Of a stretch of 64,000 nt of DNA, positions 4,145 through 42,913 are shown in pieces. The notes below the pieces were generated by a model, which was given only the letters and a program-made list of their open reading frames with translations, did not search any database and had not been told where the DNA came from. The position numbers and the translations under genes are program-made. Numbering within the stretch: the stretch's first letter is position 1; each line of letters opens with the position of its first letter. Source of the DNA: a virus; UHGV virus genome UHGV-1351982. One strand, 5' to 3'.

Positions 4145-4147
4145 AAC

Positions 4148-6180: not shown

Positions 6181-6184
6181 TAAT

Positions 6185-7853: not shown

Positions 7854-7858
7854 TATAA

Positions 7859-27837: not shown

Positions 27838-28319
27838 TATCTCTTACCTCCTCCTGCTAGAGCGGTAATAAGATTCATATAGTTTTCGTCACCACTTCCA
27901 GCAATAATATTATTCTGAATATTAGTCTGGTTAGCCGGAGTACGGGCTGCTGCCTTCACTTTCTCCAGTTCTACCATCATTTTCATTTCTTCCATCTTCA
28001 TCTTGTGCGCCTTCCAGAGAATATCCATGATATCCTGGTCAGAACCCATGCCAGTTTCTTCGAGTTCTTCCAACTTGCGCTTGATAACTTCATCAAGAAC
28101 TCCGAATAAGCGGTCACGATTACGGAAGCCGCTTTCCATAAAGATATCGTTAAGATAGTTTTTAACTTCCCCACGATTCATTATATCACGGAATGCAATC
28201 TCGGACATCCCAAGACTACGAGCAGCGGCAGGAACATCACTACCGCACTGTAAATAGGCTTCAATAACATCCATGCCTTCGGGAGACATGAGATCGGGAA
28301 CTAATACATCATTTGCCAT
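27837..28319 (-). CDS. putative terminase small subunit
   Basis: 160 aa directly upstream of terL with overlapping stop/start; HTH-like N-terminus. Confidence 0.45.
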
Positions 28320-28329: not shown

Positions 28330-30111
28330 TTAGGTTAGGCGTTGAACTGTTACACGTAGTCTTGGCAAGAAAACAGCTGCCGCTTCTGCAGCGTGAATGA
28401 TAACACCCAACTCAACGTTGCCATTACCAAGGTTTTTAATAGTATAAATATATCCGTTCCTACGGAAAGCAAACTTATCAGGCCTACTAGCCCAAGTTTG
28501 TGTATAACTATAGGAAGTTGTACTGTGATAAGGTACTAGATATCCAGGTGGCAGAGTAAGAATCTGGTGGAATACACCATCACCAGCTGTATAACTTTGT
28601 TGACGTCTACCTTGTACCTGCCAAGCGCTACCGCCGTAAGTACGCACAGGCATTCCAGCAGTATTAAGATTACCCATAATAACTTCAGTAGTTAATATAA
28701 CGGTAGAGTGAGCATTAGGTAATCCTAACCAAACAGTGGCCAAAGGTGTATAGAAGTCACCAGCACCAGGGTAGGAAGGAGTTATATCATCACCAACATA
28801 AGTACTTGCAACGTTGCCTGGAAATAACCTGAGGGGTACAGTACTAGGACTCCACACAGGTCCATGTTCATTACCGATGGAGTTGGTATTAGTATCTACA
28901 TACCATTGTTTACCTACACCAAATTTATATAAGCTAATTTGAGAAGCTGCACCCCCATAGTTAACAGGAGACCACAACCCGCCATTACTAGAGCCGATAA
29001 ATTCACATCGTGCAGTATTATCACCAAAAACTCCGGTATACGCAGCGTTATTACCAACATACTCCATATCAGGGCGATAGCCTAAGTTTCCAAAGGCATT
29101 CTGGTTAATGAATTTATATCCTGTATTTGGTAAACTAACACCTTTAATAGTAAAGTTAGATGGAGATATTAGGATATCTGAACCGGTAAATGGATTACCA
29201 GAAACTCCCATACTACCATTAGAATAGCGCAGATTTAGCACATACCAAATAACCTTAGTTGGCGTAACGTTATACCAGTCCTGTACATATACCTTTCTAG
29301 CAGACTGAGCAGCCATATTAGAAGTAGAACCTCTACAAACATATATTTTTTTTGGATATGCAGGAGATTGGTAAAGAACGTTTACGTTATCTGGTAGTAC
29401 ACCTTTCTTACCTGCAAAGCCACGAATATTAGAATTACAAACATAAAACCAATCATGGCCTCTACCAGCAGAACCAACAGGCGCCTGCCAGTTAGGTTCC
29501 CAATAATCTGCGTTACCACCATCTAAAGGAACAGTAGAGACACCAGTTGGAAAACCCATAAGACTCCAGGCTCTGGCAATGGCTTCACCAGCAGAAACAC
29601 CACCAGGTCTAAAGATCTGGAAACCAGAGGACTGTAGTAAACTGCCTCCAGAACCTTGCCGAGCAATAGATTCCTCATGACCAAGACCACCATTATAGAT
29701 ATAGGTACCATGAGCTAAACTATCACCGATCGCAAAAGCAGATGTTACAGATAATTCAGCACCAGCACGTGGTTGGTCTTCAAAGAATGATAAGAACTGG
29801 CCAACCTGAGATTGTGTACCATTAAGGAAACCCCTATGAGTACCATTTATCTCAATAGCAGTTAATATAACTCTACCAGGATCATTGGATTTAATGTTTA
29901 TAATATCCCAAGGCATCTGAGTAACAAAGTACCCATTACCTGCATCACCTAGGGCAGCCTCATAAGTCCCATCAACTAGGACGAAGGGCATATCTGAGTG
30001 GAAGATACTATTAGTATTTGGAGAGTAGTGCTGATTTATATCACCACCATTAGCAGCGTTTAGAGATAATACAGTTTTACCATCACTAAATTTTCCTGCG
30101 AAAAAACTCAT
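28330..30111 (-). CDS. oad: receptor-binding protein (T5 pb5/oad-like)
   Basis: 593 aa; N-terminus [18 protein letters not shown]...IFHSDM resembles my recollection of T5 pb5; divergently adjacent to llp as in T5-like phages. Confidence 0.6.
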
Positions 30112-31441: not shown

Positions 31442-31599
31442 CGCTAATTTGACTTTTGCCAAATCTCATAAGATTACACATGAAGGTGTGCCCAGAGGTT
31501 CCCTAGATGAGAATGAGTCTCATTACCGCCCCCTTACTTAGCAAGCTAATAGTCACACCATGTTATCATTACACAGTGTGACTATTTTATTTTTAATTG

Positions 31600-32334
31600 T
31601 TAGGCAACTTTTAATTTATCAATGAATTGTTGCGGTGTGGTACTATATTCCGCGCGTTCTTCCTCGGTCATACCTTCCCAACACATTTTTAAACGTTCGG
31701 CTAGGAATTGATAATCGTTATCATCATCAAGCGATTCATCAATAAAGGTTTCACCGATCAATGTTACGCCGATTGATAGGATATCGTTAACGGCTTGAGC
31801 ATCCAGCGTTTTAAATCCAGCACTTGCCGCCGCTGATAATACACCTTTATGATCATCAATCATTGTAAAATCAGCATTAGGATATAGCTGTTTAAACAGT
31901 TCAAAGTAATAAGATTTATATACAGCGTCTTTACTGTGGTATATTTCGCTAACCTTATTTGCATCAAAGTATTTATGTAATGTATCGCGGGAAAATACGC
32001 GAATATTACTATTTCCGCGCCCTCGCAAGCCTTGTTTGCGTAAATAAAAATAATCGCTTTTAGACATTAGGCGCGCGGTACAAATAATATTTAAAGTATT
32101 TGCATCATTCATACATTGGCGCATATATTCAACCAATGGCAATAAAGAATCCTGCATAATTAAATCATGCTTGCAGGCTTCGCGGGAATATTTATTTAAA
32201 TCTAAATTCCCATTATCATCAAAACAAGGCCCGACACGGTGCATTGAGTTAATGATTGTACCGTCTAAATCCCAAATCATAACGCGGGAAATATGCGGGA
32301 AAGTGCGGGTAATATTCATGTTGACTTGATTCAT
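31600..32334 (-). CDS. dmp: 5'-deoxyribonucleotidase (T5 Dmp-like, HAD-family)
   Basis: 244 aa, same length as T5 Dmp; HAD motif I VMIWDLDGTI near N-terminus. Confidence 0.6.
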   Translation of the reverse strand: MNQVNMNITRTFPHISRVMIWDLDGTIINSMHRVGPCFDDNGNLDLNKYSREACKHDLIMQDSLLPLVEYMRQCMNDANTLNIICTARLMSKSDYFYLRKQGLRGRGNSNIRVFSRDTLHKYFDANKVSEIYHSKDAVYKSYYFELFKQLYPNADFTMIDDHKGVLSAAASAGFKTLDAQAVNDILSIGVTLIGETFIDESLDDDNDYQFLAERLKMCWEGMTEEERAEYSTTPQQFIDKLKVA

Positions 32335-32421
32335 TTGTTACATTCTCCATTTAAGGGATTTAGGTTAATTCAATCTTGCCAGCTAATTATATTGGATTAG
32401 CTGGCAATGTTCAATTAACTA

Positions 32422-32814
32422 TTAATTAGTGAGGCCATACGCTAGCGCGTCACCAATAAAGCTAAGATCTTCACCATGTACGCTAGAACGAATCCCCGCG
32501 CAAGTGTAGACCATCGCGCTAGCTTCTGGATTGCAGACCGGACACGGCTTAACAACCGCAAACGCTAGACCGGATTTAAGCGCATCAATAATAATTGTTT
32601 GTACTGTTAAAGTATCAGCGTAAACACCTTTTGCTTTTGTATGGCTTGCCACTTTGCCGGTATCATAAGCAAAGGTAGTAACCTGCAAAACGTCGTTATA
32701 ATTCAGCAAATCGAAATTAACTTGCCCCGCCTCGACGTGATAACGTTCGCCATTAGAATAAACTAGAACGATGGAAGAAGTAGCGCGGTCAAAAGGAATG
32801 CTTTGGTTTTTCAT
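32422..32814 (-). CDS. hypothetical pre-early protein
   Basis: 130-aa ORF between dmp and A1-like gene. Confidence 0.4.
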   Translation of the reverse strand: MKNQSIPFDRATSSIVLVYSNGERYHVEAGQVNFDLLNYNDVLQVTTFAYDTGKVASHTKAKGVYADTLTVQTIIIDALKSGLAFAVVKPCPVCNPEASAMVYTCAGIRSSVHGEDLSFIGDALAYGLTN

Positions 32815-32846
32815 GTTTATGACTCCAGATTATTTAATTACGGGAT

Positions 32847-33125
32847 TTATTGAAAAAATACATTTAAAGATAAATCAGTTTTACGAAAATATGTTTCGTC
32901 GCCGTCTTTCCTTTCTTGATTAAGGTAATCGCCTGTCATTACCTGAATAGAATCTTTTCCGAAAAAGATCATATTTTCGCCAATATTACTATCCCATACG
33001 GCGTACATTCCCGCGTACATTCCACGGGTAACTAAATAAACGCAACTATCAAAAGACATTTCAGACCATGCAATATCTTCTAAACAATTGCTATCAGGGA
33101 TAGATATATTAATTTTACTAGCCAT
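32847..33125 (-). CDS. hypothetical pre-early protein
   Basis: 92-aa ORF. Confidence 0.4.
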   Translation of the reverse strand: MASKINISIPDSNCLEDIAWSEMSFDSCVYLVTRGMYAGMYAVWDSNIGENMIFFGKDSIQVMTGDYLNQERKDGDETYFRKTDLSLNVFFQ

Positions 33126-33177
33126 TTAATAAACCTTTTATTAATGGCGGTATATTTCAACCGCCGATTAAATTTAA

Positions 33178-34842
33178 TTATGCAAAGAATTTACCGTTCT
33201 TAAAGTCAATCAATGTTCTTTGACCGTTTGCATAGGTAATTAAATGCGTTTGCGTCCAGCTTGACGCGCCCACGTTGTAGCCCATATCAAGGGAACCAGC
33301 AACGCCAGCGGTATAAACGCCGCCGTAAATGCTAGCCGTATGAGTATGACCAGTGTTAAGGCGTCCCAACTTTTTAAACTGCTTAGGATTGCCCCGACTG
33401 CCGTTAATGCCATTGTGACCATGTACGCCGCATTCAATGCCAGCGATTTTAAACGACTGGTCAGTAGTCAGGAAAATAGCGTTAAATTCGCAACCTGCGA
33501 CACTACGCAAGGCGTAATCTAGCACGTTAAAAGTATCATCCTTTTCAGCAATAGCGGCGTATATAGCAGCGTTTAGACGGTGATACAATTCCGCGTTTGC
33601 GGGATCGTCTTTAATGTTAGCGTTACGATCATCTAACCAGCGGGATAAAGCTAAATCATGGTTAGATTCAACAATGATTGTTTGAGAGAAATCACGCTCC
33701 ATTGATTCTAATACGCGTCCAGTGTCGATAAGATCATCTAGAACCTTGTCACGTCCTGCGGCGTACTGTTTAGCAAGGAATACACCACTAGCGCGGTTGT
33801 GATGGTTACGCGATGTAAAATCATGCACATCATGAATAAACTGATATTTAGGCTTGAGAATATCAAGCAAGCTGTTTTCACTAGCCCATGAAGCAACGGC
33901 GCATTCATCATCTAATTTTTCGGCGTGAATATCACCATATTGCAAGCCTAGAACATGATCGGACGTTTCAAAACATCCGGTAGGCATAGCGCAAACATTC
34001 AAATCATAAAACATTCCGCTTTCGTCCATCGTTTCAAGCTGACGAACAAAAAATTCGCCGTCGTCGTCAAATTCTACCAGCAAAGCGCCGAAATTATGTA
34101 AAGCCTCGGCCTTTTGTCCTGCCTTTTGCTGGATATAGTTTTTAAGCGTAGCCGTTCCGGTTGAATACATACGGCGCACTACTTCACCTTTTAACGCTGG
34201 CACACTTTCAGCGGTAATTTTAGCGTGACCAATTGCCAGACCTTCAATATTTAAAGCCGTGGCGGTTTCTGCGAATCCTGAAAGCGGATAGTCTGCCGTT
34301 GGTAACACGTTAATTTCAGCCATGAAAGCAAAACGGCGATTATTTAAAAATACGTTTTTCTCGCAAATATATTTATTAAATGCGGGATCGTATTTAATGC
34401 CTTCGTTACCTTCTCCATTCTGGAAGCCGTTTTTATTGTAAATGAATTTACTAACCAGCAATTCACCGCCGATATATTCAGCGAATTTTTCCAGACTTGC
34501 TAAAAAGTTTTTATGCGGGAAAGTATTATTTTGAATCGACGTTAGAATAAAACGGCGACCGGATTTAACTTCCCACTGTTCCACGGTACTAGAAACAATT
34601 CCCGCCGCTTCGGGGCGATCATCATTTTTAATCGCCTTTTCAGCTTTTGCCGCTTTCGGTTTTGCTGGCTTATTTGCTTCCAACCAATCGCAAATTGCGG
34701 TTGAATGTTTCGTTGTATCGTAAACAGCTTTTGATATATCGTCGCAAACTTCCAGCTTAGTAGCGCGTAAACGTTTACCGTAGAAATTAAAATCAGCGGC
34801 AAGTTTAACGATCTGGGCTTGTTTTTCTGCGGAAATATTCAT
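33178..34842 (-). CDS. A1: A1-like pre-early protein with metallophosphatase motifs
   Basis: 554 aa (T5 A1 about 556 aa); calcineurin-like motifs GDIHAE and GHTHTASIYGG; in pre-early region next to dmp. Confidence 0.6.
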   Translation of the reverse strand: MNISAEKQAQIVKLAADFNFYGKRLRATKLEVCDDISKAVYDTTKHSTAICDWLEANKPAKPKAAKAEKAIKNDDRPEAAGIVSSTVEQWEVKSGRRFILTSIQNNTFPHKNFLASLEKFAEYIGGELLVSKFIYNKNGFQNGEGNEGIKYDPAFNKYICEKNVFLNNRRFAFMAEINVLPTADYPLSGFAETATALNIEGLAIGHAKITAESVPALKGEVVRRMYSTGTATLKNYIQQKAGQKAEALHNFGALLVEFDDDGEFFVRQLETMDESGMFYDLNVCAMPTGCFETSDHVLGLQYGDIHAEKLDDECAVASWASENSLLDILKPKYQFIHDVHDFTSRNHHNRASGVFLAKQYAAGRDKVLDDLIDTGRVLESMERDFSQTIIVESNHDLALSRWLDDRNANIKDDPANAELYHRLNAAIYAAIAEKDDTFNVLDYALRSVAGCEFNAIFLTTDQSFKIAGIECGVHGHNGINGSRGNPKQFKKLGRLNTGHTHTASIYGGVYTAGVAGSLDMGYNVGASSWTQTHLITYANGQRTLIDFKNGKFFA

Positions 34843-34951
34843 AACTAATTCAACTCCTATAAAGGGATAAAGATTAAAGCTGGCAATATTGCCAAATATA
34901 ACGCCTTGCCTGAAGTGAGGACAATTTAAAAGGCGTTATAATTTGCAACAT

Positions 34952-35176
34952 TTAATTAATCGGCATTAAACTAGAACAAAAGCCAAATACAATGCCAATT
35001 GTAAGAAAGATAATTGACATATATTTTTGAATGTTCGCGTTTTTGCGGAAATTATTTGCGGCGTAAACGTTATTAATTCCAATTATTGCCAGAATTGACC
35101 GCGTATAATTCAGAATAAAAGCGGCGGCAATAATAAATAAACCTAAAATAAACGCTTCGCTAGGATAAAAGATCAA
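34952..35176 (-). CDS. small membrane protein
   Basis: 74 aa, two hydrophobic helices. Confidence 0.35.
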   Translation of the reverse strand: MIFYPSEAFILGLFIIAAAFILNYTRSILAIIGINNVYAANNFRKNANIQKYMSIIFLTIGIVFGFCSSLMPIN

Positions 35177-35226
35177 GATTATTCTCCTTTAAGGGATAGC
35201 GGGGAATATTCCCCGCTAATTAAAAT

Positions 35227-35643
35227 TTATTCACCTGCGGCCTGTTTTACTTCCTCCGCTACGCCTAACAATTGCGCTACGGCGTCCAGCGTTTCCAGTT
35301 TTGCACTTTCCAGACTTGCCAAATCGTCGGCATCTTTTACAATGCCGCTATCAATGGCATGTTTAGCAATGACGCGCACATAGTGAGCTTTACGGACAGA
35401 GCTACCGCCGCCAACTTTACGCGGTTTATCGCTTTTCTGATAGGCTTTTGCACTGGCCAATTTAGAACGTACAGAAACAGGGGACGCAGCGCCAACGGCG
35501 GCGGCAATTTCTTTTAAGCCGTCACTATTCGCAAACTCAATCCCGCTTTTAGCAACCATTTCAGAGTACATAGAAACAGCTTTTTCGGTGTTTTCTTCGT
35601 TCCAAGAGAATTTTGCGGTTTTTTCGGTTTTAACGTTAGACAT
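35227..35643 (-). CDS. A2-like pre-early protein (putative DNA-binding)
   Basis: 138 aa immediately upstream of A1-like gene; size and position as T5 A2. Confidence 0.4.
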   Translation of the reverse strand: MSNVKTEKTAKFSWNEENTEKAVSMYSEMVAKSGIEFANSDGLKEIAAAVGAASPVSVRSKLASAKAYQKSDKPRKVGGGSSVRKAHYVRVIAKHAIDSGIVKDADDLASLESAKLETLDAVAQLLGVAEEVKQAAGE

Positions 35644-35743
35644 AATTTAATACTCCATTCAATTATTAATTAAGGGATTATGATTAACTAATGTTAATCC
35701 ATATATTCCCCATATTTCAGGGGAATATAAAAGTAACACTAAT

Positions 35744-35995
35744 TTATGCTATAGCTTGCCATTTATCATCTTTCTGAATGATCTTTACAACGTCGCCAGA
35801 TTTAACGCGAACATTATAAATAGGCTTGCTGTTGTTACTGCGTTCCGTTTCCGCATAGACCGCTTCAATCTTATCAAAGGGATCAAGCGCCGCACCTTTG
35901 ATACGTTCGGCTTTTCCGGTTAATTCATCAGTTTTAGTTACAAAAGGAATGAAAACAGATTGACCTACTTTCGGCGCGGTAATAACGTTTTGCAT
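35744..35995 (-). CDS. hypothetical protein
   Basis: 83-aa ORF. Confidence 0.4.
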   Translation of the reverse strand: MQNVITAPKVGQSVFIPFVTKTDELTGKAERIKGAALDPFDKIEAVYAETERSNNSKPIYNVRVKSGDVVKIIQKDDKWQAIA

Positions 35996-36159
35996 TTTTA
36001 ATACTCCGGTTTATTGGGGATTATTCCACAATAGCGCCTCGATACTTTGAAACGCTATTAGATTATAATCCGCTAGGAGTTAGCCTAAACATTACCATTA
36101 TCCAAATTTTTAAAGAGCAGTTACTACGGGGAACATCTTAAAACCTATCGGCTAGCGTG

Positions 36160-36378
36160 TCAAGCGTTTTTTAAACTTTTTTCGATTTGATGTGAGTTAT
36201 ATAAATCAATCATTATATTACGCCACACCATTTCCAGACCTTGCTGCTTACCTTTCTTGTATTGCTTGAATCTGTATTTTACAGATCGTTGCGCTACTGT
36301 CAACAAATTTTTTGTTCTGCTATCCAGTGGGCTAGCAGGTTTTGCACTAATCACTAAAGCGTTTTTTGATTTGATCAT
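36160..36378 (-). CDS. hypothetical basic protein
   Basis: 72-aa basic ORF. Confidence 0.35.
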   Translation of the reverse strand: MIKSKNALVISAKPASPLDSRTKNLLTVAQRSVKYRFKQYKKGKQQGLEMVWRNIMIDLYNSHQIEKSLKNA

Positions 36379-36760
36379 TATCGTCGATTCCTTATAATGT
36401 ATAAGTTTACCGCCGATAGGCTTTAAGATGTTCCCTAGTTTTTAAAGAGCATGGCGGTAAACTTCCCCGCCGTGTAATCTTGCGTTTCGTTTCCGTCCCG
36501 CCGTCCTACGAGATAAATAATAGGGGATTCCCGAAAATGGCGCAACCTTATTTTTGTAAAGAAACGTAAAGAAAACCACTACCCGCACCACGGCAAGCGG
36601 CGCACTAAGTTTAATGAAACAGGCGCGCGAATAACACTAAAACAACCACTTTAGCAAGTAATTTTTTCATTTATATCTGCTCTAGGGTACTTGACAAAAT
36701 CTAAAATCCTCGTGGTGAGGTTTTCTCGGTGTACCCCTTATGATTGCCTATCTTTTCCTT

Positions 36761-36798
36761 TGATGCGCTTAGAATCGCTTACAGAGCGTTTTAGACCC
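36761..36798. repeat. direct repeat copy 1 (TGATGCGCTTAGAATCGCTTACAGAGCGTTTTAGACCC)
   Basis: About 85 percent identical to 40503-40538 by eye. Confidence 0.6.
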
Positions 36799-37010
36799 TG
36801 TTAATAACTTATACAAAAAGCAAAAATGAAATTTAATGAGTTATCCACTTGATTTTTCAAAAAAGTATTTTCTGCTGTTATTTTTCATTGACAAATAAGT
36901 TTAGACGTGCATTGATTGGTTAGCAGACTAACAATCGCTAGGATAATAATCACGCTGGTGGATTGTAACAGCCGAAACAGTTAGCAGACTATTAATACTC
37001 TAAAAACCTA

Positions 37011-37041
37011 TTAGCCAACTAACTATTTCATATTATATAAT
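37011..37041 (+). promoter_or_regulatory. candidate promoter (-10 TATAAT with ATAAATT leader) about 430 nt upstream of the plus-strand cluster
   Basis: TATAATATACTTATAAATT matches the conserved early promoter/leader motif; -35 weak. Confidence 0.35.
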
Positions 37042-37099
37042 ATACTTATAAATTAAAGAGAAATAATAACTATAAGAAACTATCGGCTAAGTGAGAACC

Positions 37100-37222
37100 A
37101 CTATCATTTAGGTTATTCACAAAGTTATCCACAGCACAAAATAACTTGACGCAATAGGCGACGTTTTGGCGACTTATCCACAGACTTATGTACAGGTTAT
37201 CCTACTGTATAAATATACAGGG
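37100..37222. repeat. left copy of about 120-bp imperfect inverted repeat carrying two DnaA boxes (TTATTCACA 37113-37121, TTATCCACA 37125-37133), a third DnaA box (37174-37182) and a LexA-like box (37203-37222)
   Basis: Reverse complement of 40567-40690 aligns by eye; includes an identical 16-mer TTATCCACAGACTTAT. Confidence 0.6.
37203..37222. promoter_or_regulatory. LexA (SOS) box-like palindrome TACTGTATAAATATACAGGG
   Basis: CTGT-N8-ACAG core with AT-rich spacer, close to the E. coli consensus TACTGTATATATATACAGTA. Confidence 0.5.
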
Positions 37223-37469
37223 TAGAATGGTAGCAGTAACAACCGCAATCAAATTTAAGCGGCCTAGAACGCGCTACACGGCGTTTTCTCACTGCTACCC
37301 TTATTATAATAAAGCCTTGTGTACGCTTACAGAGAGCTAGAAATAGAAAACGCGCGGTTATCATAAAAACAGGCAGTAGGCAAGGAATAAAAAACCTTTT
37401 CTTTTTTCTTGCCCATAGTGAACAAATATCTATATCATTCACTCACCGATTAACGAGGGAGGCAAAGAA

Positions 37470-38489
37470 ATGTCTACTGTAAGAATTGCAGTGCCAGCAA
37501 ACGCAACTATTGTTAAAGGTAGTTTGCGCAACCTGCTAGATGGTAGTAGTGCGGCAAGTATTCAGCACACCGCTACTATTGTAGAAAAGATTCACGATGA
37601 AATTTTAGACAATAATGATACTCATTATTCAGTTGATGATTTCACGCTATTACTAGACCAGACAAGGGCGCTAGTAATTTTCAACCGTGATTATCACATT
37701 TTCCGTAATAGTCGGGGAACTGATATTGATTTTATCATTGTTGGTTATAGTGAGTCTCATAGTGGTTACATTGCGCGATTATATAACGTGCAAGAAAAGG
37801 AGCAGGTAACAGCAACAAAAGTAAATAATATCCGGCTGGATAGTGTCGGATCGTTATTAAATAGTATCTGGCGTGAATTATCCTCAAGCTATAAAGGTGC
37901 GGATAGTGACGCAATCGAAACAACTGGCGTATTGTGTTTTGAAAAGTCAACGGGTAACATGTTGATCCCTAGCGATTATTTAGGGTATGGGAATGAATCA
38001 AACGTTGCAAACGCTGGATTTACACTTTTCCCGCTTGACAATGTAACAAAACAGGCTGTAAACTCTCAAACTTCAAGCGCAATTGCGCAAACTACTGAAA
38101 ATAAAGGAAATAACACTATGTCTAAAGTAACCGCTATCGTTGCCGCTAATAAATCCGCCGCCGCTACCGCTGCAAAACTGGAAGCGGGTAAAGTAGCACT
38201 AACTCAGCTTACAAAAGTAGCGGCTAAAGCCCTGCCTTCTGGTATGGCTGGCATGTTCGCTAAACAGTATTTAGATACTCCGGTCGGGCGCGTTGTTGTT
38301 GCCAACTTGTTAAATCTGGCAATCGAACAATACGCACCGAATAACCAGAAAGCGCGAATTGTTGCTAAAGCCGCAATGGATGCCGCAATGCTGGAAGTGG
38401 TACAGAGTTTCAATATTTCTGAAATGATCGACAAGGCAATCGAGGGAATCAACATTGATGCTTTGACTGCTAATATTTCAGAAGAGTAA
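37470..38489 (+). CDS. hypothetical protein (339 aa), first gene of plus-strand pre-early cluster
   Basis: Strong RBS GAGGGAGG before ATG; own terminator hairpin after stop; no recognisable domain. Confidence 0.5.
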   Translation: MSTVRIAVPANATIVKGSLRNLLDGSSAASIQHTATIVEKIHDEILDNNDTHYSVDDFTLLLDQTRALVIFNRDYHIFRNSRGTDIDFIIVGYSESHSGYIARLYNVQEKEQVTATKVNNIRLDSVGSLLNSIWRELSSSYKGADSDAIETTGVLCFEKSTGNMLIPSDYLGYGNESNVANAGFTLFPLDNVTKQAVNSQTSSAIAQTTENKGNNTMSKVTAIVAANKSAAATAAKLEAGKVALTQLTKVAAKALPSGMAGMFAKQYLDTPVGRVVVANLLNLAIEQYAPNNQKARIVAKAAMDAAMLEVVQSFNISEMIDKAIEGINIDALTANISEE

Positions 38490-38498
38490 TAATAACAA

Positions 38499-38525
38499 GC
38501 GGGAATTAATTTTCCCGTTTTCTTC
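38499..38525 (+). terminator. terminator-like hairpin after the 339-aa gene
   Basis: CGGGA-ATTAATTT-TCCCG followed by TTTTCTT. Confidence 0.45.
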
Positions 38526-38547
38526 CCTTTTAGTTAGGAGACTAATT

Positions 38548-39039
38548 ATGTTTGGTAACAGAAATTATGGCAACCCTATTGAAGCACGATCCCTTAATCA
38601 TGACGCAATTGTATTCACTCATGCGTCTACCGGTTATTGTGGATCAGATGGGAATGATTATCATTTCGTTCCCGCTGGTGACGATATTGATGATCTATGT
38701 AATGAGGCAGGTTATGAAAATGCTTGCTCTTATGGTCTAGAAGTTATTGAAGTAGACGACGGCGAATATGAGGATAATGATAATATTGAATGCTCCGCTT
38801 ATCATTATCAGTTAAGTGAATCAGGTTGTTATATTGGCGGCGGCGATCCTATTAATTCCATCACTGAAATAATTATTGAAAATGGTGGCGTTTCGCTGAA
38901 TGGTAACAAGGCGTTACTATATGCAAACCGATTAAAGCAACTTGTATATATTCCTGATGGGAAAGAATGGGAAGAATACAACGTTCTAATTGCAGAATTG
39001 AAAAGCTGTTTCGGCGTGGAAGTGGTAGAAATAGTCTAA
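38548..39039 (+). CDS. strongly acidic hypothetical protein (163 aa)
   Basis: RBS TTAGGAGA; Asp/Glu make up over one fifth of residues with very few Lys/Arg, several Cys. Confidence 0.5.
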   Translation: MFGNRNYGNPIEARSLNHDAIVFTHASTGYCGSDGNDYHFVPAGDDIDDLCNEAGYENACSYGLEVIEVDDGEYEDNDNIECSAYHYQLSESGCYIGGGDPINSITEIIIENGGVSLNGNKALLYANRLKQLVYIPDGKEWEEYNVLIAELKSCFGVEVVEIV

Positions 39040-39054
39040 TGTAAAGTTTTGTAA

Positions 39055-39081
39055 AGGTCGCCCTAATCGGCGGCCTTTTTT
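39055..39081 (+). terminator. rho-independent terminator (GGTCGCC-CTAATC-GGCGGCC then TTTTTT)
   Basis: GC stem plus T6 immediately after the stop at 39039. Confidence 0.6.
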
Positions 39082-39146
39082 GTTATAATGCCTTTACACC
39101 GAAACGGTGGATTGAAAATTTTCCCTGATTTCTAGGAGGCGTTAAA

Positions 39147-39377
39147 ATGGTTGCTTTCTCTTCTTCTGACTCCCTTTTCACTGGTAAAGGTTGGGTATCT
39201 AATCGCTGGATCATTGATCAAATGGTTTCGGAATTTGGGATTGGTAAAACTTATGTTACCATTCAGGCGCTTTATGATAATGACAAGATTGACCAGCAAA
39301 CCGCCGGATTTTTGCTGGATACGCTGAAAGCGGAACATTGCACTAAAAAGCAAGCGGCAAAAATTGTTTTAATGTAA
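39147..39377 (+). CDS. hypothetical protein (76 aa)
   Basis: RBS CTAGGAGG; followed by hairpin GGGGCG-TTACTTTC-GCCCC. Confidence 0.45.
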   Translation: MVAFSSSDSLFTGKGWVSNRWIIDQMVSEFGIGKTYVTIQALYDNDKIDQQTAGFLLDTLKAEHCTKKQAAKIVLM

Positions 39378-39424
39378 TTAATAACGGGGCGTTACTTTCG
39401 CCCCTCATTCCCTTACTAGGAGTT

Positions 39425-39643
39425 ATGCAAATGTTAAAGAATGTTTCCCTTGCCCGTTCTAAAGGTTTTAAGCTGGTGGATGTTAACACCTTCGAGCGTC
39501 CAGATTGTAAAATCGAATATGTAGCACGCAACAAAAACCCTTTCCGTGTTACAGAAAAGAAATTTGACAAGCGCGGCAATTTGATAGCCGAAACGGTTAA
39601 ACACTTTGCTACTTTTTACGCTGCTTTTCGTGGGGTATTATGA
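39425..39643 (+). CDS. hypothetical basic protein (72 aa)
   Basis: RBS CTAGGAG; possible 33-aa hydrophobic ORF (39642-39743) overlapping its stop. Confidence 0.45.
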   Translation: MQMLKNVSLARSKGFKLVDVNTFERPDCKIEYVARNKNPFRVTEKKFDKRGNLIAETVKHFATFYAAFRGVL

Positions 39644-39752
39644 GATCCTTATATATTGCTCTAGCGTTTGCTACTGTTGGCGTTGTATGCTCATTCGCCG
39701 CATTTGTTTTAAAAATGTACATGATATTTTCCCAGCTTTAGGAGGTTGACAA

Positions 39753-40100
39753 ATGGTAATTTATGAGGGCAATCGTTTTGTTGCTAATTGCCGTCCGGCA
39801 TTGTTAGCAAACTATTTAAATCAGCTTTCACCAGTTTATAAAGGCGTGGTTAATATCTATGAAGGCAAAGCACATTATAAAATTTCTGCCGTTGTCGCTC
39901 GCGAGCTTGCCTTTCAGTTTCTTACTTTTAACTCATGCGATATTCAGGTTATGGGTGAGCCATTAGTCGCAGAAAATGAAAATGAATTTATTGACATTTT
40001 CCGCAAAGTATGTACAGAGCGCCTGATTATGAAGGGCGCGTATATTCAATCAACCGCTGAAAGTATTGAAACAGCGTTTCGAAAAATTGTAAATGAATAG
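39753..40100 (+). CDS. hypothetical protein (115 aa)
   Basis: RBS TTAGGAGG 8 nt before ATG. Confidence 0.45.
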   Translation: MVIYEGNRFVANCRPALLANYLNQLSPVYKGVVNIYEGKAHYKISAVVARELAFQFLTFNSCDIQVMGEPLVAENENEFIDIFRKVCTERLIMKGAYIQSTAESIETAFRKIVNE

Positions 40101-40226
40101 CTGGTGGCGAAAAACACAAAGCCATAAATCTAATAATACCGCTGGGAAACATTCCCAGCGTTTACGATTTGGTAATGGCTGCGTAATGATATTGATAATC
40201 ATCCTCATTCTAGGAGCGATGGCGTT

Positions 40227-40421
40227 ATGAGTGATAAAATTGTTGTAACTAAAACTACTGTTACCGTTGATACTTTCTTTGTGCCTGATACGCTGGAAAA
40301 TCGGCAATTAGTCGAGCGTGGCGATTATGACAAAGTGATATATGATGGGGATGGATACTATCAACATTTGGTAGACTCCTACGGCGAAAGCGAAAAGATC
40401 ACACATCGACTACCAGACTAA
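40227..40421 (+). CDS. hypothetical acidic protein (64 aa)
   Basis: RBS CTAGGAGC; terminator follows. Confidence 0.4.
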   Translation: MSDKIVVTKTTVTVDTFFVPDTLENRQLVERGDYDKVIYDGDGYYQHLVDSYGESEKITHRLPD

Positions 40422-40427
40422 TAATAA

Positions 40428-40457
40428 CGGGGCGCAACTATCGGCCCCGTCTTTTCT
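40428..40457 (+). terminator. rho-independent terminator (CGGGGCG-CAACTATC-GGCCCCG then TCTTTTCT)
   Basis: Strong GC hairpin and T-rich tail after last gene of plus-strand cluster. Confidence 0.6.
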
Positions 40458-40502
40458 GGCCTTCCTCAAATTTCCCCTTATTAAAATACCTCTTCCAAAA
40501 AT

Positions 40503-40538
40503 AAACGCGTTAGAATGCGTTACAGAGCGTTTTAGAGC
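40503..40538. repeat. direct repeat copy 2 (AAACGCGTTAGAATGCGTTACAGAGCGTTTTAGAGC)
   Basis: Matches 36761-36798. Confidence 0.6.
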
Positions 40539-40566
40539 TATATTAGAGTTATTCACTACGCAGGAA

Positions 40567-40586
40567 TACTGTATAAATATACAGTA
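40567..40586. promoter_or_regulatory. near-consensus LexA (SOS) box TACTGTATAAATATACAGTA
   Basis: Perfect palindrome TACTGTAT/ATACAGTA, 19 of 20 matches to the E. coli LexA consensus. Confidence 0.55.
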
Positions 40587-40690
40587 GAATAATCTGTTGA
40601 TAAGTCTGTGGATAACGCCTCAAAATCGCTAGGATTTTGTCAAGTCAAATCGTGCTGTTAATAAACCTGTGGATAACTTAAATAACAGTG
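40567..40690. repeat. right (inverted) copy of the about 120-bp repeat with LexA box (40567-40586) and two DnaA boxes TGTGGATAA (40607-40615, 40668-40676)
   Basis: Reverse complement aligns with 37100-37222. Confidence 0.6.
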
Positions 40691-40708
40691 TTTCTCACTT
40701 CGCTTTGT

Positions 40709-40852
40709 AAATGCGAGTCATTCTCATTATCATTCGCGTTTCCCTTCCTAAATGCAAATCATTCTCATTCGTATTCCGGTAGTCAAATGATAACTATTCT
40801 CATTCGCATTCAACTTCTCAAATGCGAATCAATCTCATTATCATTCGCATTT
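40709..40852. repeat. four tandem copies of a palindromic unit (AATGCGA..TTCTCATT..CATTCGC)
   Basis: Units at about 40709, 40750, 40785 and 40820; last unit has perfect 10-bp arms AAATGCGAAT/ATTCGCATTT. Confidence 0.6.
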
Positions 40853-40889
40853 CGGCAGGCAGGGCATTTTCTATTTGCCCTGCGCTTTT

Positions 40890-41489
40890 GTGCAAATCCG
40901 ACATTTGCCCCCACGGATTACGTGCCAGCGTGTATGTGCGAATCCGACAATTTTTGGTAGTGTGCAAATCCGACCCGAAATATTTTTATAGTGTGCGAAT
41001 CCGACAATGAATTTCCCTAAAAACTCCAGCAATCTCGAACTGCGATCGAATCCTGTGGGATATGCGCAAATCCGACATGAGTTTGCTAGGAGACAGATTT
41101 ATGGTTTCAGGAATATTTTTGTGACTTCGATGAGAGGGTGTGTAATTGTGTGAGTTTGGGGAGAAGTGCGAATCCGATGAGGTTTTGGGAGGAACTATGA
41201 GAGGAGCAGCGGTGTTGGTGCTTTAGCACCGATTTGCTGCGTTTTTGGGGATAATGTGAGATGTTTTGGGATAATTGGGCGTGGGGTGAGATAAAGTGAA
41301 ATTTTATTAGTTAAATGGGGCAAAATCGCTTGACAAGTGAAAATTCCTGTGTCCCTAAAAACTCAGGCAATCATGGGCCTTCGGCCCGAAATAATGCTGC
41401 TATTTTCAGGAGATTATGTGCTCATGAAAACTTAGGCAATTGTGCAAATCCGACCAGTTTTTAAACTTATATCAGTGTGCAAATCCGAT
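40890..41489. repeat. iteron-like array: 8 direct copies of GTGC(A/G)AATCCGA(C/T), all in one orientation, irregular spacing
   Basis: Copies at 40890, 40936, 40962, 40993, 41064 (variant GCGCAAATCCGAC), 41166, 41442, 41477. Confidence 0.7.
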
Positions 41490-42025
41490 AGCAATTTCCA
41501 GAAATGTGTTTTCAAAAAATGTTGTCTAGAAATAACCGCCCTCCCCATAACCGCCCTGTATTAACCGCCTATTGCTGGAGTTTCTAGGAACATGAAAACC
41601 GCCTGAGTTAATGGGAGTTTTCCTAGAAACTTAGGAGTCTAGAAGAAAGTGTTGTGCCATCCTAGCAGATGAGCGGCAACAGGTGTATCATCTTGAACGT
41701 TAATTTATCTATTTAACAGTATTAGTTTTTATATAAGTATAAGATCCCCAAGGGTTCTCATATAGAGCTTTGCCCCCGCCAGAAGGTCTCGTGATGTTTC
41801 TAGTAATCTTTATTAAATTACTTGTTGACTTGTCCTGTCGCTCCGTAACCTACGCTACAAGTCAGTAATTTAAGATTCCTGAACCACCACACCTTCTGTG
41901 TGGCAACTCTAAATGGTTAATTCTATTAACTCATAGAGTTATGATAACATACATTTAGCTATCTGTCAACGAGAGTTTGTATCTGAGTCTCGGTACAGGT
42001 ATTGTGCACCGAGACATGCAGGATC

Positions 42026-42913
42026 TTACAGTAACTCTTGGTATGCTTTTTGGTACGCCTCAGTGTTAGTAGGTGTATCTTTTGCAATAGTTATTAATTC
42101 ATCTGTGATCTGAATATTCGTATTATAACGTGAGTGGAACTCGTCAGGAATTTCTAGATACCTATTGATGAATGCTGCAGCAAGCGGTGAAGCTATACCC
42201 ATTTCTAGAACCCATCCAACTTGTTTCTCAAACTTCAAATAAGGAGATTCTGTTTGAATAGTAGAAGTTTTGGTTTCCTTGATTTCTTTTATTGGTAGGA
42301 TTGGATTTTCATAACGTGCTTCTTCAGGGATAGCAGATCTACGTTCTTTATAAATATAAGTCTCTAGATCCGATGCTTTAGACCCTGAATATACTGCAAA
42401 GACACTTGCTTTACCTTGTGATGCTCTAATTGGTAAATAGCAATTTGGATAACTTCTCAATGCATCGTGGAAAGGGCTTCCAGAATATTGATAACGCTCT
42501 CCATATAAATCATCAATGTTCATTCGTTCATCTTCGAAGATATGGAATGCACTAAATGAAGGTAGTGTGAAATATTCTGTTTCTAGCGCGCGAATTAAGA
42601 ATCGATGAGCATATGCACTAATCTTAATAACTGTGTAGGGTTTTTCTCCTTCTTTGAGAGCGTTACCCTTAGATGTAACTTGATAACGTTTTCCGAAGAA
42701 CTCTACTAAACGCTTCTCGTTTAAAGAGAGTGTAGAGTATAAACGTCCGTTCAGTCCTAGCAAGGTATCAAACATAAATGCTAGCTTATCTTTTTCTTCT
42801 TGGGTTAGTTCAGGAAATGGTAGGATCTTAGCATTTGGAATGTTATTTGTTTCCTTTGCCTTTCCTTTGCCAGCATTTTGTCTCAGTTTGTCTTTAAAAT
42901 TATAAGTACCCAT
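42026..42913 (-). CDS. hypothetical early protein (295 aa)
   Basis: ORF with coding-like composition; last gene of minus-strand early block. Confidence 0.5.
   Translation of the reverse strand: MGTYNFKDKLRQNAGKGKAKETNNIPNAKILPFPELTQEEKDKLAFMFDTLLGLNGRLYSTLSLNEKRLVEFFGKRYQVTSKGNALKEGEKPYTVIKISAYAHRFLIRALETEYFTLPSFSAFHIFEDERMNIDDLYGERYQYSGSPFHDALRSYPNCYLPIRASQGKASVFAVYSGSKASDLETYIYKERRSAIPEEARYENPILPIKEIKETKTSTIQTESPYLKFEKQVGWVLEMGIASPLAAAFINRYLEIPDEFHSRYNTNIQITDELITIAKDTPTNTEAYQKAYQELL

What the first reader, a model, noticed from the sequence alone, without database searches (positions are those of the whole stretch)
40690..41700. Repeat-dense noncoding tract with iteron-like array, candidate injection-stop or terminal-repeat boundary
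About 1.3 kb without convincing ORFs lies between convergent transcription units. It contains four palindromic units (40709-40852), eight same-orientation copies of the 13-mer GTGC(A/G)AATCCGA(C/T) with irregular spacing (40890-41489), three copies of AAAACT(C/T)nnGCAAT and several AACCGCC repeats. Spacing and variability argue against CRISPR. In T5 the end of the first-step-transfer DNA carries a repeat and palindrome-rich injection-stop locus, so this is the likely counterpart; the 13-mer array could be a protein-binding platform for A1/A2-type proteins or an initiator.
Basis: partly seen in the sequence, partly recalled or inferred. Interest (0 to 1): 0.65.

Follow-up and report, generated by a model that had tools for sequence, protein, structure and literature searches.

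The report
T5-type injection-stop and terminal-repeat end
This repeat-dense tract is the counterpart, in a T5-like Salmonella/E. coli phage, of the long-known non-coding region of phage T5 that holds the "injection stop signal", a genome nick and the right-hand end of the 10-kb terminal repeat, so it is real but already described, although nobody yet knows how it works.

Summary
Window 40422-42025 is a 1.6-kb non-coding tract between convergent genes. It holds four palindromic units, eight co-oriented copies of GTGCRAATCCGAY (expected by chance 0.15), AAAACTYNNGCAAT copies and AACCGCC repeats.

The window is a T5-like phage (Demerecviridae, Epseptimavirus-like) assembled with its terminal repeat (TR) collapsed. 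The tract aligns base for base (about 82% identity) with T5 "Repeat Region 3". T5's annotated injection stop signal maps to about 40400-41285, its 7.9% nick to 40885|40886 and its TR end to 41355|41356. The 13-mers are T5's nine "DRD" repeats.

New details found here:
- The motif is really a sharply bounded 14-mer, strictly one-stranded (203 of 203 sites in 24 phages).
- It is kept in Klebsiella phages and, as a variant, in a Vibrio phage.
- It brackets the TR end with spacing fixed to within 1 bp.
- A near-consensus LexA box sits beside the known DnaA boxes just left of the finding.

Function remains unproven. I favour a composite of a pause signal on the left and an end-recognition (packaging) platform around the TR end. 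An A1/A2 binding platform is the main rival.

The parts
31490..41355 (.). Terminal repeat (one collapsed copy, about 9,866 bp) carrying the pre-early genes dmp, A1 and A2
   Evidence: Position 1 of vB_SenS-3 aligns to window 31490, and T5 position 27 aligns to 31516. The boundary is inferred by homology; it was not measured for this phage.
37100..37225 (+). Partner inverted repeat (T5 'Repeat Region 2', IRC-spacer-IRD) with DnaA boxes at 37113, 37125 and 37174 and a LexA-like box at 37203-37222
   Evidence: Davison describes this as the inverted partner of the repeat at 40541-40677.
40428..40454 (+). Hairpin plus T-run terminator ending the rightward pre-early operon
   Evidence: Aligns with the T5 annotated terminator at 9275-9296. 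The sequence is ggggcgcaactatcggccccgtctttt.
40567..40586 (.). Near-consensus LexA (SOS) box TACTGTATAAATATACAGTA
   Evidence: One mismatch to TACTG(TA)5CAGTA, with 0 matches expected by chance. The CTGT/ACAG arms are kept in 18 of 20 aligned relatives, and the spacer flips between AAA and TTT. The core is identical in Klebsiella Spivey and Vibrio VCPH.
40595..40676 (-). Two pairs of DnaA / DnaA-like boxes, each pair 3 bp apart. Consensus TTATCCACA lies at 40607-40615 and 40668-40676; variants lie at 40595-40603 and 40656-40664. This is T5 IRD'-spacer-IRC', Davison's iss candidate.
40709..40852. Four palindromic or semi-palindromic 27-33-nt units (T5 DRC/DRE/pal repeats). The nominal end of the first-step-transfer DNA maps to the last unit.
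   Evidence: The number of units varies between relatives; T5 has 28 extra bases here. The units resemble Fur boxes only weakly (13-14 of 19).
40859..40886 (-). GC-rich palindrome (GCAGGGCA-N9-TGCCCTGC) with the nick consensus CCCTGCGC|T. The homolog of the T5 7.9% single-strand interruption lies at 40885|40886 on the - strand.
   Evidence: T5 9748|9749 maps here. All three annotated T5 nick sites share CCCTGCGC|T. The motif matches exactly at 40878. The hairpin fold has z = -3.0.
40889..41178 (+). 14-mer cluster A: six copies of T-GTGCRAATCCGAY starting at 40890, 40936, 40962, 40993, 41064 and 41166 (T5 'DRD' repeats), inside the terminal repeat
41050..41350 (+). G-rich, C-poor tract (GC skew +0.5 to +0.64) with TTTGGGG / TTTTGGGA / GGGGATAA repeats, in the 300 bp left of the repeat end
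   Evidence: Similar G-rich tracts occur in Vibrio VCPH and IMG/VR locus L093.
41321..41400 (.). Nearly invariant block GCTTGACAAGTGAAAATTYCTGTGKCYC|TAAAAACTCAGGCAAT...GGGCCTTCGGCCC. It holds the inferred right end of the terminal repeat (41355|41356) and a 5-bp hairpin at 41375-41387.
   Evidence: Hairpins of different sequence occur 15-19 nt right of the equivalent point in Klebsiella Spivey and Vibrio VCPH. Caveat: the 22 sequences were selected by an exact match to the hairpin, so its invariance is partly built in.
41016..41587 (.). CTA(A/G)AAACTYNRGCAAT motif copies at 41020, 41358 (directly at the repeat end) and 41427 (+), and 41571-41584 (-)
   Evidence: The long inverted repeat they form (41011-41033 / 41571-41593) lacks its right arm in about half of the relatives and shows no consistent covariation.
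41441..41489 (+). 14-mer cluster B: two copies at 41442 and 41477, in unique DNA 86 bp beyond the repeat end
   Evidence: 100% and 98% column conservation. The spacing of 86 and 35 bp is invariant in 20-22 sequences.
41531..41603 (+). AACCGCC repeats (probably T5 'DRA' copies 2 and 3, ATAACCGCCCT x2, plus two shorter copies)
   Evidence: On the + strand, WWACCGCCC also occurs 34 nt inside the left repeat end at 31523.
41760..41969 (-). Right edge of the tract: a strong sigma-70-like promoter firing leftward (TTGACA-17-TATCAT, 41969 to 41941), followed by a long imperfect hairpin of about 120 nt (41780-41898)
   Evidence: z = -4.7. Three compensatory changes separate two haplotypes. The promoter is kept even where the downstream module is replaced.

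Best explanation
The tract is the non-coding right end of the roughly 9.87-kb terminal repeat of a T5-like phage, plus the first 670 bp or so of unique DNA. It is the ortholog of T5 'Repeat Region 3'. I read it as a composite cis-acting DNA element with no product of its own.

(a) Left part, 40541-40886. It holds a LexA-like palindrome, two pairs of DnaA boxes, the palindromic units and the nick site. This is the last DNA inside the cell when first-step transfer pauses. It is the most likely pause signal, acting through bound host proteins and/or extruded hairpins.

(b) Middle part, 40889-41489. A fixed-geometry array of co-oriented 14-mers (six inside the repeat, two beyond it) brackets an almost invariant 80-bp block that contains the repeat's right end and a small hairpin. 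I think this most likely assembles a phage-encoded sequence-specific protein that defines this genome end. The small terminase subunit is the best candidate, so the array would be a pac/cos-like platform.

The reasoning for (b): T5 injects its left end first, so that end should be packaged last, and packaging should therefore start at the right end of the repeat.

What is shown: the homology, the map positions, the motif statistics, the conservation and the fixed spacing. What is inferred: which proteins bind, and both functional assignments.

My estimates: identity as the T5 iss / repeat-end module about 0.95; the 14-mers are protein-binding sites about 0.85; they serve end recognition or packaging about 0.35-0.4.
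For: Identity:
- 518 phage records match, nearly all T5-like.
- The alignment with T5 places the iss feature, the terminator, the nick and the repeat end inside the tract.
- Flanking genes are syntenic.
- The literature describes the same repeats in 25 T5-like phages.

Non-coding: the ORFs are not conserved and there is no Rfam match.

Protein-site character of the 14-mer:
- Information content is 1.0-2.0 bits over 14 positions (1.5 or more at all but R4 and Y12) and falls to 0.6 bits or less outside them.
- All 203 sites lie on one strand and none on the other.
- The copies are generally more conserved than their spacers, for example 0.95 against 0.78 and 1.00 against 0.80.

A phage-encoded rather than host binder:
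- The motif is kept in Klebsiella Sugarlandvirus (9 copies) and Eos. Variants occur in Vibrio VCPH (AGTGCGRAWNCNAC) and in distant locus L093 (GGTGCAAAACCGAT, 12 or more copies).
- No such arrays exist in enterobacterial chromosomes among 185,579 species genomes.

Link to the genome end:
- The clusters lie on both sides of the repeat end in the T5-like phages and in Klebsiella Spivey, and on both sides of the record break in Vibrio VCPH.
- Copy 1 to the repeat end is 466-468 bp. The repeat end to copy 7 is 86 bp. Copy 7 to copy 8 is 35 bp. These hold in 20-22 sequences.
- The neighbouring intervals vary by 60-120 bp.
- In this window copy 5 is shifted by 10 bp, yet the total length is unchanged.
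- TerS and TerL genes are present.

Pause signal: the nominal end of first-step-transfer DNA (T5 coordinate about 9618 in AY587007) falls in the last palindromic unit, just right of the DnaA/LexA cluster.
Against: - No experiment, even in T5, has mapped the iss by mutation. The T5 'iss' annotation is positional.
- The repeat boundary of this particular phage was not measured, because the assembly has only one repeat copy. One relative's annotation (saus132) places the boundary 209 bp further left.
- No 14-mer lies near the other cut, the left repeat end at 31490. A simple terminase-site model therefore needs a different signal there.
- The claim that packaging starts at the right end rests on the general last-in-first-out rule, not on T5 data.
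- The fixed spacing could partly reflect a low indel rate among fairly close relatives. In Klebsiella Spivey the distances differ (346 + 118 bp).
- The invariance of the hairpin block is inflated, because the comparison set was chosen by an exact match to it.
Confidence: 0.6

Rival explanations
1. The 14-mers are a loading platform for the pre-early proteins A2 and/or A1. After the pause these proteins bind the first DNA to come through. They then restart or pull second-step transfer, or, in Davison's model, cut the DNA there.
For: Cluster A begins 4 bp right of the 7.9% nick and about 60 bp right of the nominal first-step-transfer end. A2 is annotated as a DNA-binding protein that, together with A1, is needed for DNA transfer. 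Both genes are present and, like the motif, occur across the family, including the Vibrio phage. Cluster B lies beyond the repeat, which fits a role at the left genome end only. Davison's model needs a specific site to the right of the iss but still inside the repeat.
Against: At the pause these sites lie to the right of the shear point, so they are not yet in the cytoplasm. A ratchet or pulling role gives no reason for sequence specificity, for strict one-strand orientation, for spacing fixed to within 1 bp, or for bracketing the repeat end. No sequence specificity of A2 is reported in the sources read. A2 and A1 have no Pfam domain that would suggest a specificity.
Confidence: 0.28
2. The tract is an iteron-type replication origin. 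The 14-mers are iterons for a phage initiator, helped by the nearby DnaA boxes.
For: The tract holds a cluster of DnaA boxes, repeated same-sense motifs and AT-rich stretches, an arrangement Davison calls 'reminiscent of oriC'. T5 encodes a protein annotated as a replication origin binding protein (T5.108), and the motif complement contains TTCGCAC. From memory, that heptamer also occurs in the herpes UL9 site; this is a lead only.
Against: Spacing is irregular (26-276 bp) rather than the regular repeat of about 22 bp seen in iterons. No initiator gene is adjacent. According to the electron-microscopy studies cited by Davison, T5 origins lie near the middle of the genome, and replication genes are not expressed during first-step transfer. 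T5.108 matches the herpes origin-binding family only in its helicase part (profile positions 46-197 of 820).
Confidence: 0.06
3. The tract is a transcriptional boundary element. The repeats bind a regulator, or simply form hairpins, that stop early leftward and pre-early rightward transcription from running across the repeat boundary.
For: The flanking genes converge. A terminator lies at 40428-40454. A conserved strong leftward promoter at 41969 to 41941 fires into the tract, followed by a long hairpin. On the - strand the small hairpin at 41375-41387 is followed by a T-run that ends exactly at the repeat end, and in Vibrio VCPH the hairpin is followed directly by a T-run.
Against: This does not explain eight to ten copies of a 14-bp asymmetric motif with fixed spacing. 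The promoter and terminator counts in the tract do not exceed those in shuffles. Terminators do not need 1.6 kb.
Confidence: 0.06

Closest known systems
Phage T5 'Repeat Region 3' / injection stop signal (iss) at the right end of the left terminal repeat (AY543070 9140-10409; DRD, DRC/DRE, DRA, IRD'-spacer-IRC')
   Same: Same genomic position, between the T5.017-like and T5.018-like genes. The sequences are collinear at about 82% identity. The order of elements is the same: terminator, palindrome plus paired DnaA boxes, palindromic units, GC palindrome with nick consensus, 13/14-mer array, G-rich tract, repeat end, hairpin, two more 14-mers, AACCGCC repeats.
   Different: The differences are in copy number only. 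This phage lacks the 14-mer that all 21 compared relatives have at aligned position 41099, and lacks T5's copy at 10478. It has one at 41166 that T5 lacks. It has four palindromic units, and T5 carries 28 extra bases there.
Terminase recognition sites with repeated small-subunit binding elements next to the cut (lambda cosB R-sites, SPP1 pacL/pacR, P1 pac hexamers; adenovirus A-repeats as a polar array). This comparison is recalled from established knowledge, not tested here.
   Same: Several copies of a short motif flank a sequence-specific genome end. The geometry is fixed, and the element is non-coding.
   Different: Binding by T5 TerS is untested. The second cut, 9.9 kb away, has no such motif. 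All copies are strictly co-oriented. The repeat is long (10 kb), so a duplication step is also needed.
E. coli oriC-type DnaA-box clusters and LexA (SOS) operators
   Same: Consensus TTATCCACA boxes occur in pairs. A 20-mer lies one mismatch from the LexA consensus. The same 16-mer core occurs in at least 108 unrelated viral contigs, mostly 30-60 kb.
   Different: They sit in a virulent phage's non-coding repeat end and are not clearly placed at a promoter. Binding by the host proteins is untested. T5 replication is reported not to start here.
Plasmid/phage iteron origins
   Same: Repeated same-sense short motifs lie near DnaA boxes.
   Different: The motif is 14 bp, not 17-22 bp. Spacing is irregular. 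No initiator gene is adjacent.

Membership tests
T5-type iss / Repeat Region 3 of the Demerecviridae terminal repeat | Lies at the right end of the terminal repeat, after the rightward pre-early genes and before the first leftward early gene, with dmp-A1-A2 at the far left | tested here: met
   dmp 31600-32334, A1 33178-34842, A2 35227-35643, T5.011-like 37470-38489 and T5.018-like 42026-42913.
T5-type iss / Repeat Region 3 of the Demerecviridae terminal repeat | Sequence homology and collinearity with T5 9140-10409 | tested here: met
   MAFFT alignment gives 82% identity to T5 over 40375-42074.
T5-type iss / Repeat Region 3 of the Demerecviridae terminal repeat | IRD'-spacer-IRC' with DnaA / DnaA-like boxes in pairs 3 bp apart, and an inverted partner upstream (Repeat Region 2) | tested here: met
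   The pairs lie at 40595-40603 / 40607-40615 and 40656-40664 / 40668-40676. The partner boxes lie at 37113, 37125 and 37174 on the opposite strand. Davison's exact 52-bp spacer was not re-measured with his repeat boundaries.
T5-type iss / Repeat Region 3 of the Demerecviridae terminal repeat | Array of about nine same-sense DRD repeats | tested here: met
   There are eight copies here and nine at the homologous T5 positions.
T5-type iss / Repeat Region 3 of the Demerecviridae terminal repeat | The physical terminal-repeat boundary lies inside the tract | not testable with these tools
   It is inferred at 41355|41356 from four annotated relatives. Sequencing reads or end mapping of this phage are needed.
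T5-type iss / Repeat Region 3 of the Demerecviridae terminal repeat | DNA transfer actually pauses here (two-step injection) | not testable with these tools
   This is a functional property. Even in T5 it is known only from the size of the sheared first-step-transfer DNA.
CRISPR array | Repeats of 24-48 bp at regular intervals with unique spacers of similar length | tested here: not met
   The motif is 13-14 bp, and start-to-start spacing is 26 to 276 bp.
Iteron-type replication origin | Regularly spaced iterons of 17-22 bp next to an initiator gene and an AT-rich unwinding element | tested here: not met
   Spacing is irregular, and no initiator gene lies within the flanking ORFs. T5 origins are reported elsewhere.
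Terminase recognition site (cos/pac type) | Located at the site where the genome end is cut | tested here: met
   The inferred repeat end at 41355 lies between cluster A and cluster B. This holds by homology only.
Terminase recognition site (cos/pac type) | Repeated elements are bound by the small terminase subunit and are required in cis for packaging | not testable with these tools
   A TerS gene is present at 27837-28319. There are no binding or genetic data.
LexA operator | CTGT-N8-ACAG palindrome close to TACTG(TA)5CAGTA | tested here: met
   40567-40586 matches 19 of 20 positions, and 37203-37222 matches 17 of 20. The arms are conserved while the spacer varies.
LexA operator | Bound by LexA and controls a promoter | not testable with these tools
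   Only a weak (9 of 12) promoter-like site overlaps it on the - strand.

The most novel reading that the evidence does not exclude
The co-oriented 14-mer array (T-GTGCRAAWCCGAY) is the long-sought end-recognition signal of the whole family Demerecviridae. Its two clusters are held at a fixed distance around an invariant cut-site block and hairpin. On this reading the array is a polar, pac/cos-like platform on which the small terminase assembles to make the right-end cut and start right-to-left packaging of genomes with 10-kb terminal repeats. The true injection-stop signal would then be the separate host-protein trap just to its left (a LexA operator plus four DnaA boxes). The classical 'iss region' would be two unrelated machines lying side by side. 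A geometric variant is also not excluded. It may therefore mark the segment that sits in the tail during the pause.
Probability: 0.25. Interest if true: 0.55.

Novelty: already known. Interest (0 to 1): 0.25.

Why it matters
How T5 stops its own DNA after 8% has entered, and how phages with 10-kb terminal repeats cut their ends, are both unsolved decades after their discovery. This window adds no new kind of element. It does show that the module is conserved from Escherichia and Salmonella phages to Klebsiella and Vibrio phages, which narrows the search. The sharply bounded one-stranded 14-mer, its spacing fixed to within 1 bp around the repeat end, and a near-perfect LexA operator beside the DnaA boxes are all concrete targets. 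Each can be tested by pull-down and by mutation. For annotation, the result is practical: the repeat of this collapsed assembly should run from about 31490 to about 41355, and the 'hypothetical proteins' that some records annotate across the homologous tract are probably not genes, since the ORFs found in this window's tract are not conserved among relatives.

Tried and rejected
- Coding sequence. The eight longest ORFs in the tract are intact in only 0-5 of 21 relatives. Rejected.
- Known RNA family. The only match is a chance-level PhrS hit (E = 0.16, 17 bits against a gathering score of 37). Rejected.
- CRISPR. Rejected on motif length and spacing.
- The 13-mer as part of the nicking signal. 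T5's other two annotated nick sites share CCCTGCGC|T but have no 13-mer nearby. Rejected.
- Long-range inverted repeat 41011-41033 / 41571-41593 as a structure spanning the repeat end. The right arm is missing in about half of the relatives and covariation is inconsistent. Rejected.
- Palindromic units as Fur boxes. There are seven matches of 13-14 of 19 in 170 bp against 0.16 in shuffles, and T5 units reach 15-16 of 19. However, the AT-rich window as a whole has 55 such matches against 25 expected, and the excess partly reflects the units being copies of each other. Inconclusive; kept as a weak lead.
- Host-chromosome use of the 14-mer. A two-copy pattern searched in 185,579 species genomes found two phage-contaminated MAG contigs and five unrelated tandem repeats in cyanobacteria, Myxococcota and Bacteroidales. 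None was in Enterobacteria.
- Resemblance of the 13-mer to the tRNA T-arm (GTTCGAATCC). The near matches in T5 are its tRNA genes, but the array copies have no complementary stem. Coincidence.
- Herpes UL9-like origin binding. Pfam matches T5.108 only in the helicase part. Not supported.
- Promoter at TTGACA 41330. No acceptable -10 element follows.
- SOS-triggered release of a LexA-held pause. This is unlikely to be essential because, from my own knowledge, T5 grows on recA cloning strains.
- Literature. The full text of Davison 2015 and of Wang 2005 could not be obtained. The assignment of names (DRD, DRA and so on) therefore rests on the 2020 preprint and on copy counts.
Full report
**What the window is.** The region 40400-42050 matches 518 phage records, almost all T5-like phages of Salmonella, Escherichia and Klebsiella. 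The best match is Salmonella phage SB13 at 92.5% identity.

The gene content identifies the layout:
- SbcD/SbcC-like genes at 1348-4144.
- Late structural genes on the - strand, with TerL at 26521-27837, TerS at 27837-28319 and the receptor-binding protein at 28330-30111.
- The pre-early genes dmp (31600-32334), A1 (33178-34842) and A2 (35227-35643), and a T5.011-like gene (37470-38489).
- The non-coding tract.
- A T5.018-like early gene on the - strand (42026-42913).

This order (late genes, then pre-early genes, then early genes) is what a T5-type genome gives when its two 10-kb terminal repeats are collapsed into one copy during assembly.

**Checking the observation.**
- The gap between the convergent ORFs is 40422-42025, which is 1604 bp rather than 1.3 kb.
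- Four 27-nt units start at 40709, 40750, 40785 and 40820. The first and last are true palindromes.
- GTGCRAATCCGAY occurs eight times between 40890 and 41489, always on the + strand. The window has 11 matches (one mismatch allowed) against 0.15 expected, and no shuffle reaches that number. The copy at 41064 reads GCGC....
- AAAACTYNNGCAAT has three exact copies plus one inverted copy (5 against 1.4 expected).
- AACCGCC has four copies within 70 bp (9 against 3.3 expected in the window).
- The ORFs inside the tract (90 aa or shorter) are intact in only 0-5 of 21 relatives, although the DNA is 69-90% identical. No RNA family matches.

The tract is therefore non-coding and repeat-dense well beyond chance.

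**What it corresponds to.** The T5 record AY543070 annotates the following:
- a left terminal repeat at 1-10219;
- an 'injection stop signal (iss)' at 9140-10149;
- a terminator at 9275-9296;
- a 'major DNA single-chain interruption' at 9748|9749 on the - strand.

In a MAFFT alignment of the window with T5 and four relatives, these features map as follows:
- the terminator to 40428-40454;
- the iss feature to about 40400-41285;
- the nick to 40885|40886;
- the repeat end to 41355.

The annotated repeat ends of SIY1lw, vB_SenS-3 and Stitch map to 41355, 41359 and 41360. The saus132 annotation is an outlier at 41146.

Position 1 of vB_SenS-3 aligns to window 31490, and T5 agrees. The collapsed repeat therefore runs from 31490 to about 41355, about 9,866 bp.

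T5 has nine 13-mers at the homologous positions. This matches the 'nine DRD repeats' of Davison's description of T5 'Repeat Region 3'. That description also lists the IRD'-spacer-IRC' inverted repeat with DnaA boxes, the DRC/DRE repeats and palindromes, and DRA copies 2 and 3. It notes that the region overruns the repeat by 270 bp and is conserved in 25 T5-like phages (bioRxiv 10.1101/866236).

[quoted passage not shown] The finding is thus a faithful rediscovery of a known but mechanistically unsolved element.

**The 14-mer.** I collected 22 distinct homologous sequences (GenBank records plus IMG/VR contigs that share the hairpin at 41375), together with Klebsiella phage Spivey and phage Eos. 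In these 24 sequences the motif occurs 203 times on the + strand and never on the - strand.
- A T precedes it in 95-97% of sites, so the unit is the 14-mer T-GTGCRAATCCGAY.
- Information content is 1.0-2.0 bits across these 14 positions (1.5 or more at all but R4 and Y12). It falls to 0.6 bits or less immediately outside.
- The sites are positionally conserved and mostly better kept than the spacers between them.
- This window is the only one of the 22 that has lost the copy at aligned position 41099. It keeps a copy at 41166 that T5 lacks.

The motif also survives where the flanks have diverged:
- Klebsiella Sugarlandvirus Spivey has nine copies.
- A Vibrio phage has five copies of AGTGCGRAWNCNAC.
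- A distant IMG/VR contig, L093, has at least twelve copies of GGTGCAAAACCGAT in 17-bp tandem arrays.

A two-copy pattern searched through one genome for each of 185,579 bacterial species found only two phage-contaminated contigs and five unrelated tandem repeats. None was in Enterobacteria.

Together this points to a sequence-specific protein, more likely phage-encoded than host-encoded.

**Relation to the genome end.** Six copies lie inside the repeat and two lie in unique DNA 86 bp beyond it. Between them sit two features:
- A G-rich, C-poor tract with GC skew up to +0.64.
- A nearly invariant 80-bp block, GCTTGACAAGTGAAAATTYCTGTGKCYC|TAAAAACTCAGGCAAT...GGGCCTTCGGCCC, which contains the inferred cut and a small hairpin.

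The hairpin's invariance is partly an artefact of how the comparison set was chosen.

The distances are striking:

| Interval | Length | Sequences |
|---|---|---|
| Copy 1 to repeat end | 466-468 bp | 19 of the 22 (landmarks missing in L063, L141, L147) |
| Repeat end to copy 7 | 86 bp | 21 of the 22 |
| Copy 7 to copy 8 | 35 bp | all 22 |
| DnaA boxes to copy 1 (left flank) | 216-335 bp | same set |
| Copy 8 to next anchor (right flank) | 158-219 bp | same set |

In this window copy 5 sits 10 bp closer to copy 4 than in the relatives, yet the total length is unchanged.

In Klebsiella Spivey the same order holds with different distances (346 + 118 bp), and a different hairpin sequence sits 17 nt beyond the equivalent of the cut. 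In Vibrio phage VCPH the record is opened between the G-rich tract and yet another small hairpin, followed by a 14-mer variant.

The arrangement 'cluster A, G-rich tract, end, hairpin, cluster B' is therefore family-wide.

**The left part of the tract.** This is as Davison describes.

Beside them is a 20-mer, TACTGTATAAATATACAGTA (40567-40586), one mismatch from the LexA consensus. A second, weaker copy lies in the inverted partner at 37203-37222.
- Among relatives the CTGT and ACAG arms are kept, while the spacer flips between AAA and TTT.
- The core is identical in the Klebsiella and Vibrio phages.
- The same 16-mer occurs in at least 108 unrelated viral contigs, mostly of temperate-phage size.
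- Davison's preprint does not mention LexA. No paper in the searched library links T5 first-step transfer with LexA.

The nick consensus CCCTGCGC|T sits at the foot of a GC-rich palindrome.

**How it most likely works.** What is shown is the homology, the map positions, the motif statistics, the conservation and the fixed geometry. The rest is inference.

The nominal end of first-step-transfer DNA falls in the last palindromic unit. At the pause, the LexA/DnaA cluster and the palindromic units are therefore the last DNA inside the cell, and the 14-mers are still outside. I take the left part to be the pause signal, as Davison does.

For the 14-mers I favour an end-recognition role, for these reasons:
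- The array brackets the cut.
- It is polar.
- Its geometry is fixed.
- It is conserved across hosts.
- Arrays of short repeats next to a specific genome end are, in other viruses, usually packaging signals. This last point is recalled knowledge, not something tested here.

T5 injects its left end first, so the general last-in-first-out rule implies that packaging starts at the right end of the repeat, which is this site.

The main weakness is that the other cut, at 31490, has no 14-mer. The only shared motif I found is WWACCGCCC, which lies 34 nt inside the left end and 178-193 nt beyond the right end.

An origin of replication and a pure transcriptional boundary are less likely.

**Verdict.** The element is already known as the T5 iss / Repeat Region 3 / terminal-repeat end, so interest is low to moderate. 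The open question of its mechanism stands, and the details above give sharper targets for experiment.

Noticed in passing
window 40567-40586 and 37203-37222: A near-consensus LexA (SOS) operator, TACTGTATAAATATACAGTA, has one mismatch to the consensus. A weaker copy lies in the inverted partner. Both sit next to the DnaA-box pairs. The core is identical in Klebsiella and Vibrio relatives and is not mentioned in the T5 iss preprint.
   Followed up: partly
window 41760-41969, - strand: A strong leftward sigma-70-like promoter (TTGACA-17-TATCAT with TG; 11 of 12) is followed by a long hairpin of about 120 nt (fold z = -4.7). Three compensatory changes separate two haplotypes. The element is present in 8 of 22 relatives, including T5, and is not annotated in T5. 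The promoter is kept even where the hairpin module is replaced.
   Followed up: partly
window 41050-41350: Strong strand asymmetry (GC skew +0.5 to +0.64) with telomere-like TTTGGGG / TTTTGGGA / GGGGATAA repeats in the 300 bp before the repeat end. Similar G-rich tracts occur in Vibrio VCPH and IMG/VR locus L093.
   Followed up: partly
window 40890-41489 and homologous sequences: The distance from the first 14-mer to the repeat end (466-468 bp) and on to the last two copies (86 and 35 bp) is constant in 20-22 relatives. The flanking intervals vary by 60-120 bp. The array spans about 600 bp.
   Followed up: yes
window 3473-3500: Two further tandem copies of the 13-mer (GTGCAAATCCTAC, then two bases (AG), then GTGCAAATCCGAC) lie on the + strand inside the SbcC-like gene, where they encode VQILQVQIRQ. 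T5 and several relatives also carry a copy or near-copy inside the T5.019-like gene about 2 kb right of the repeat end (T5 12154). In this window that site has decayed to two mismatches (43534).
   Followed up: partly
window 31523-31531, 41533-41541, 41548-41556: On the + strand, WWACCGCCC occurs only 34 nt inside the left repeat end and twice just beyond the right repeat end. It is the only short motif I found that both ends share.
   Followed up: partly
window 54195-54203: An exact copy of the T5 nick consensus CCCTGCGCT on the + strand lies about where T5's 18.5% nick would map. Another exact copy lies on the opposite strand at 24283-24291.
   Followed up: no
window 40709-40852; T5 L002 9549-9720: The palindromic units resemble Fur boxes: 13-14 of 19 here and 15-16 of 19 in T5. 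This is curious because T5-type phages use the iron-regulated receptors FhuA and FepA (recalled from memory, not checked here). The statistical support is weak.
   Followed up: partly
L093 7220-8250 (IMG/VR contig): A distant relative shows the same order of elements: a LexA-like palindrome, DnaA boxes, a 32-bp tandem repeat in place of the palindromic units, a GC palindrome, then 17-bp tandem arrays of GGTGCAAAACCGAT.
   Followed up: no
L154 and L159 (genome contigs): Two short contigs binned into Spirochaetia and Clostridia metagenome-assembled genomes (INTA.CYC isolates) appear to be T5-like phage DNA, so the bins are probably contaminated. L159 carries the iss-region sequence itself; L154 was recognised only by two cluster-B-like 14-mers.
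   Followed up: no
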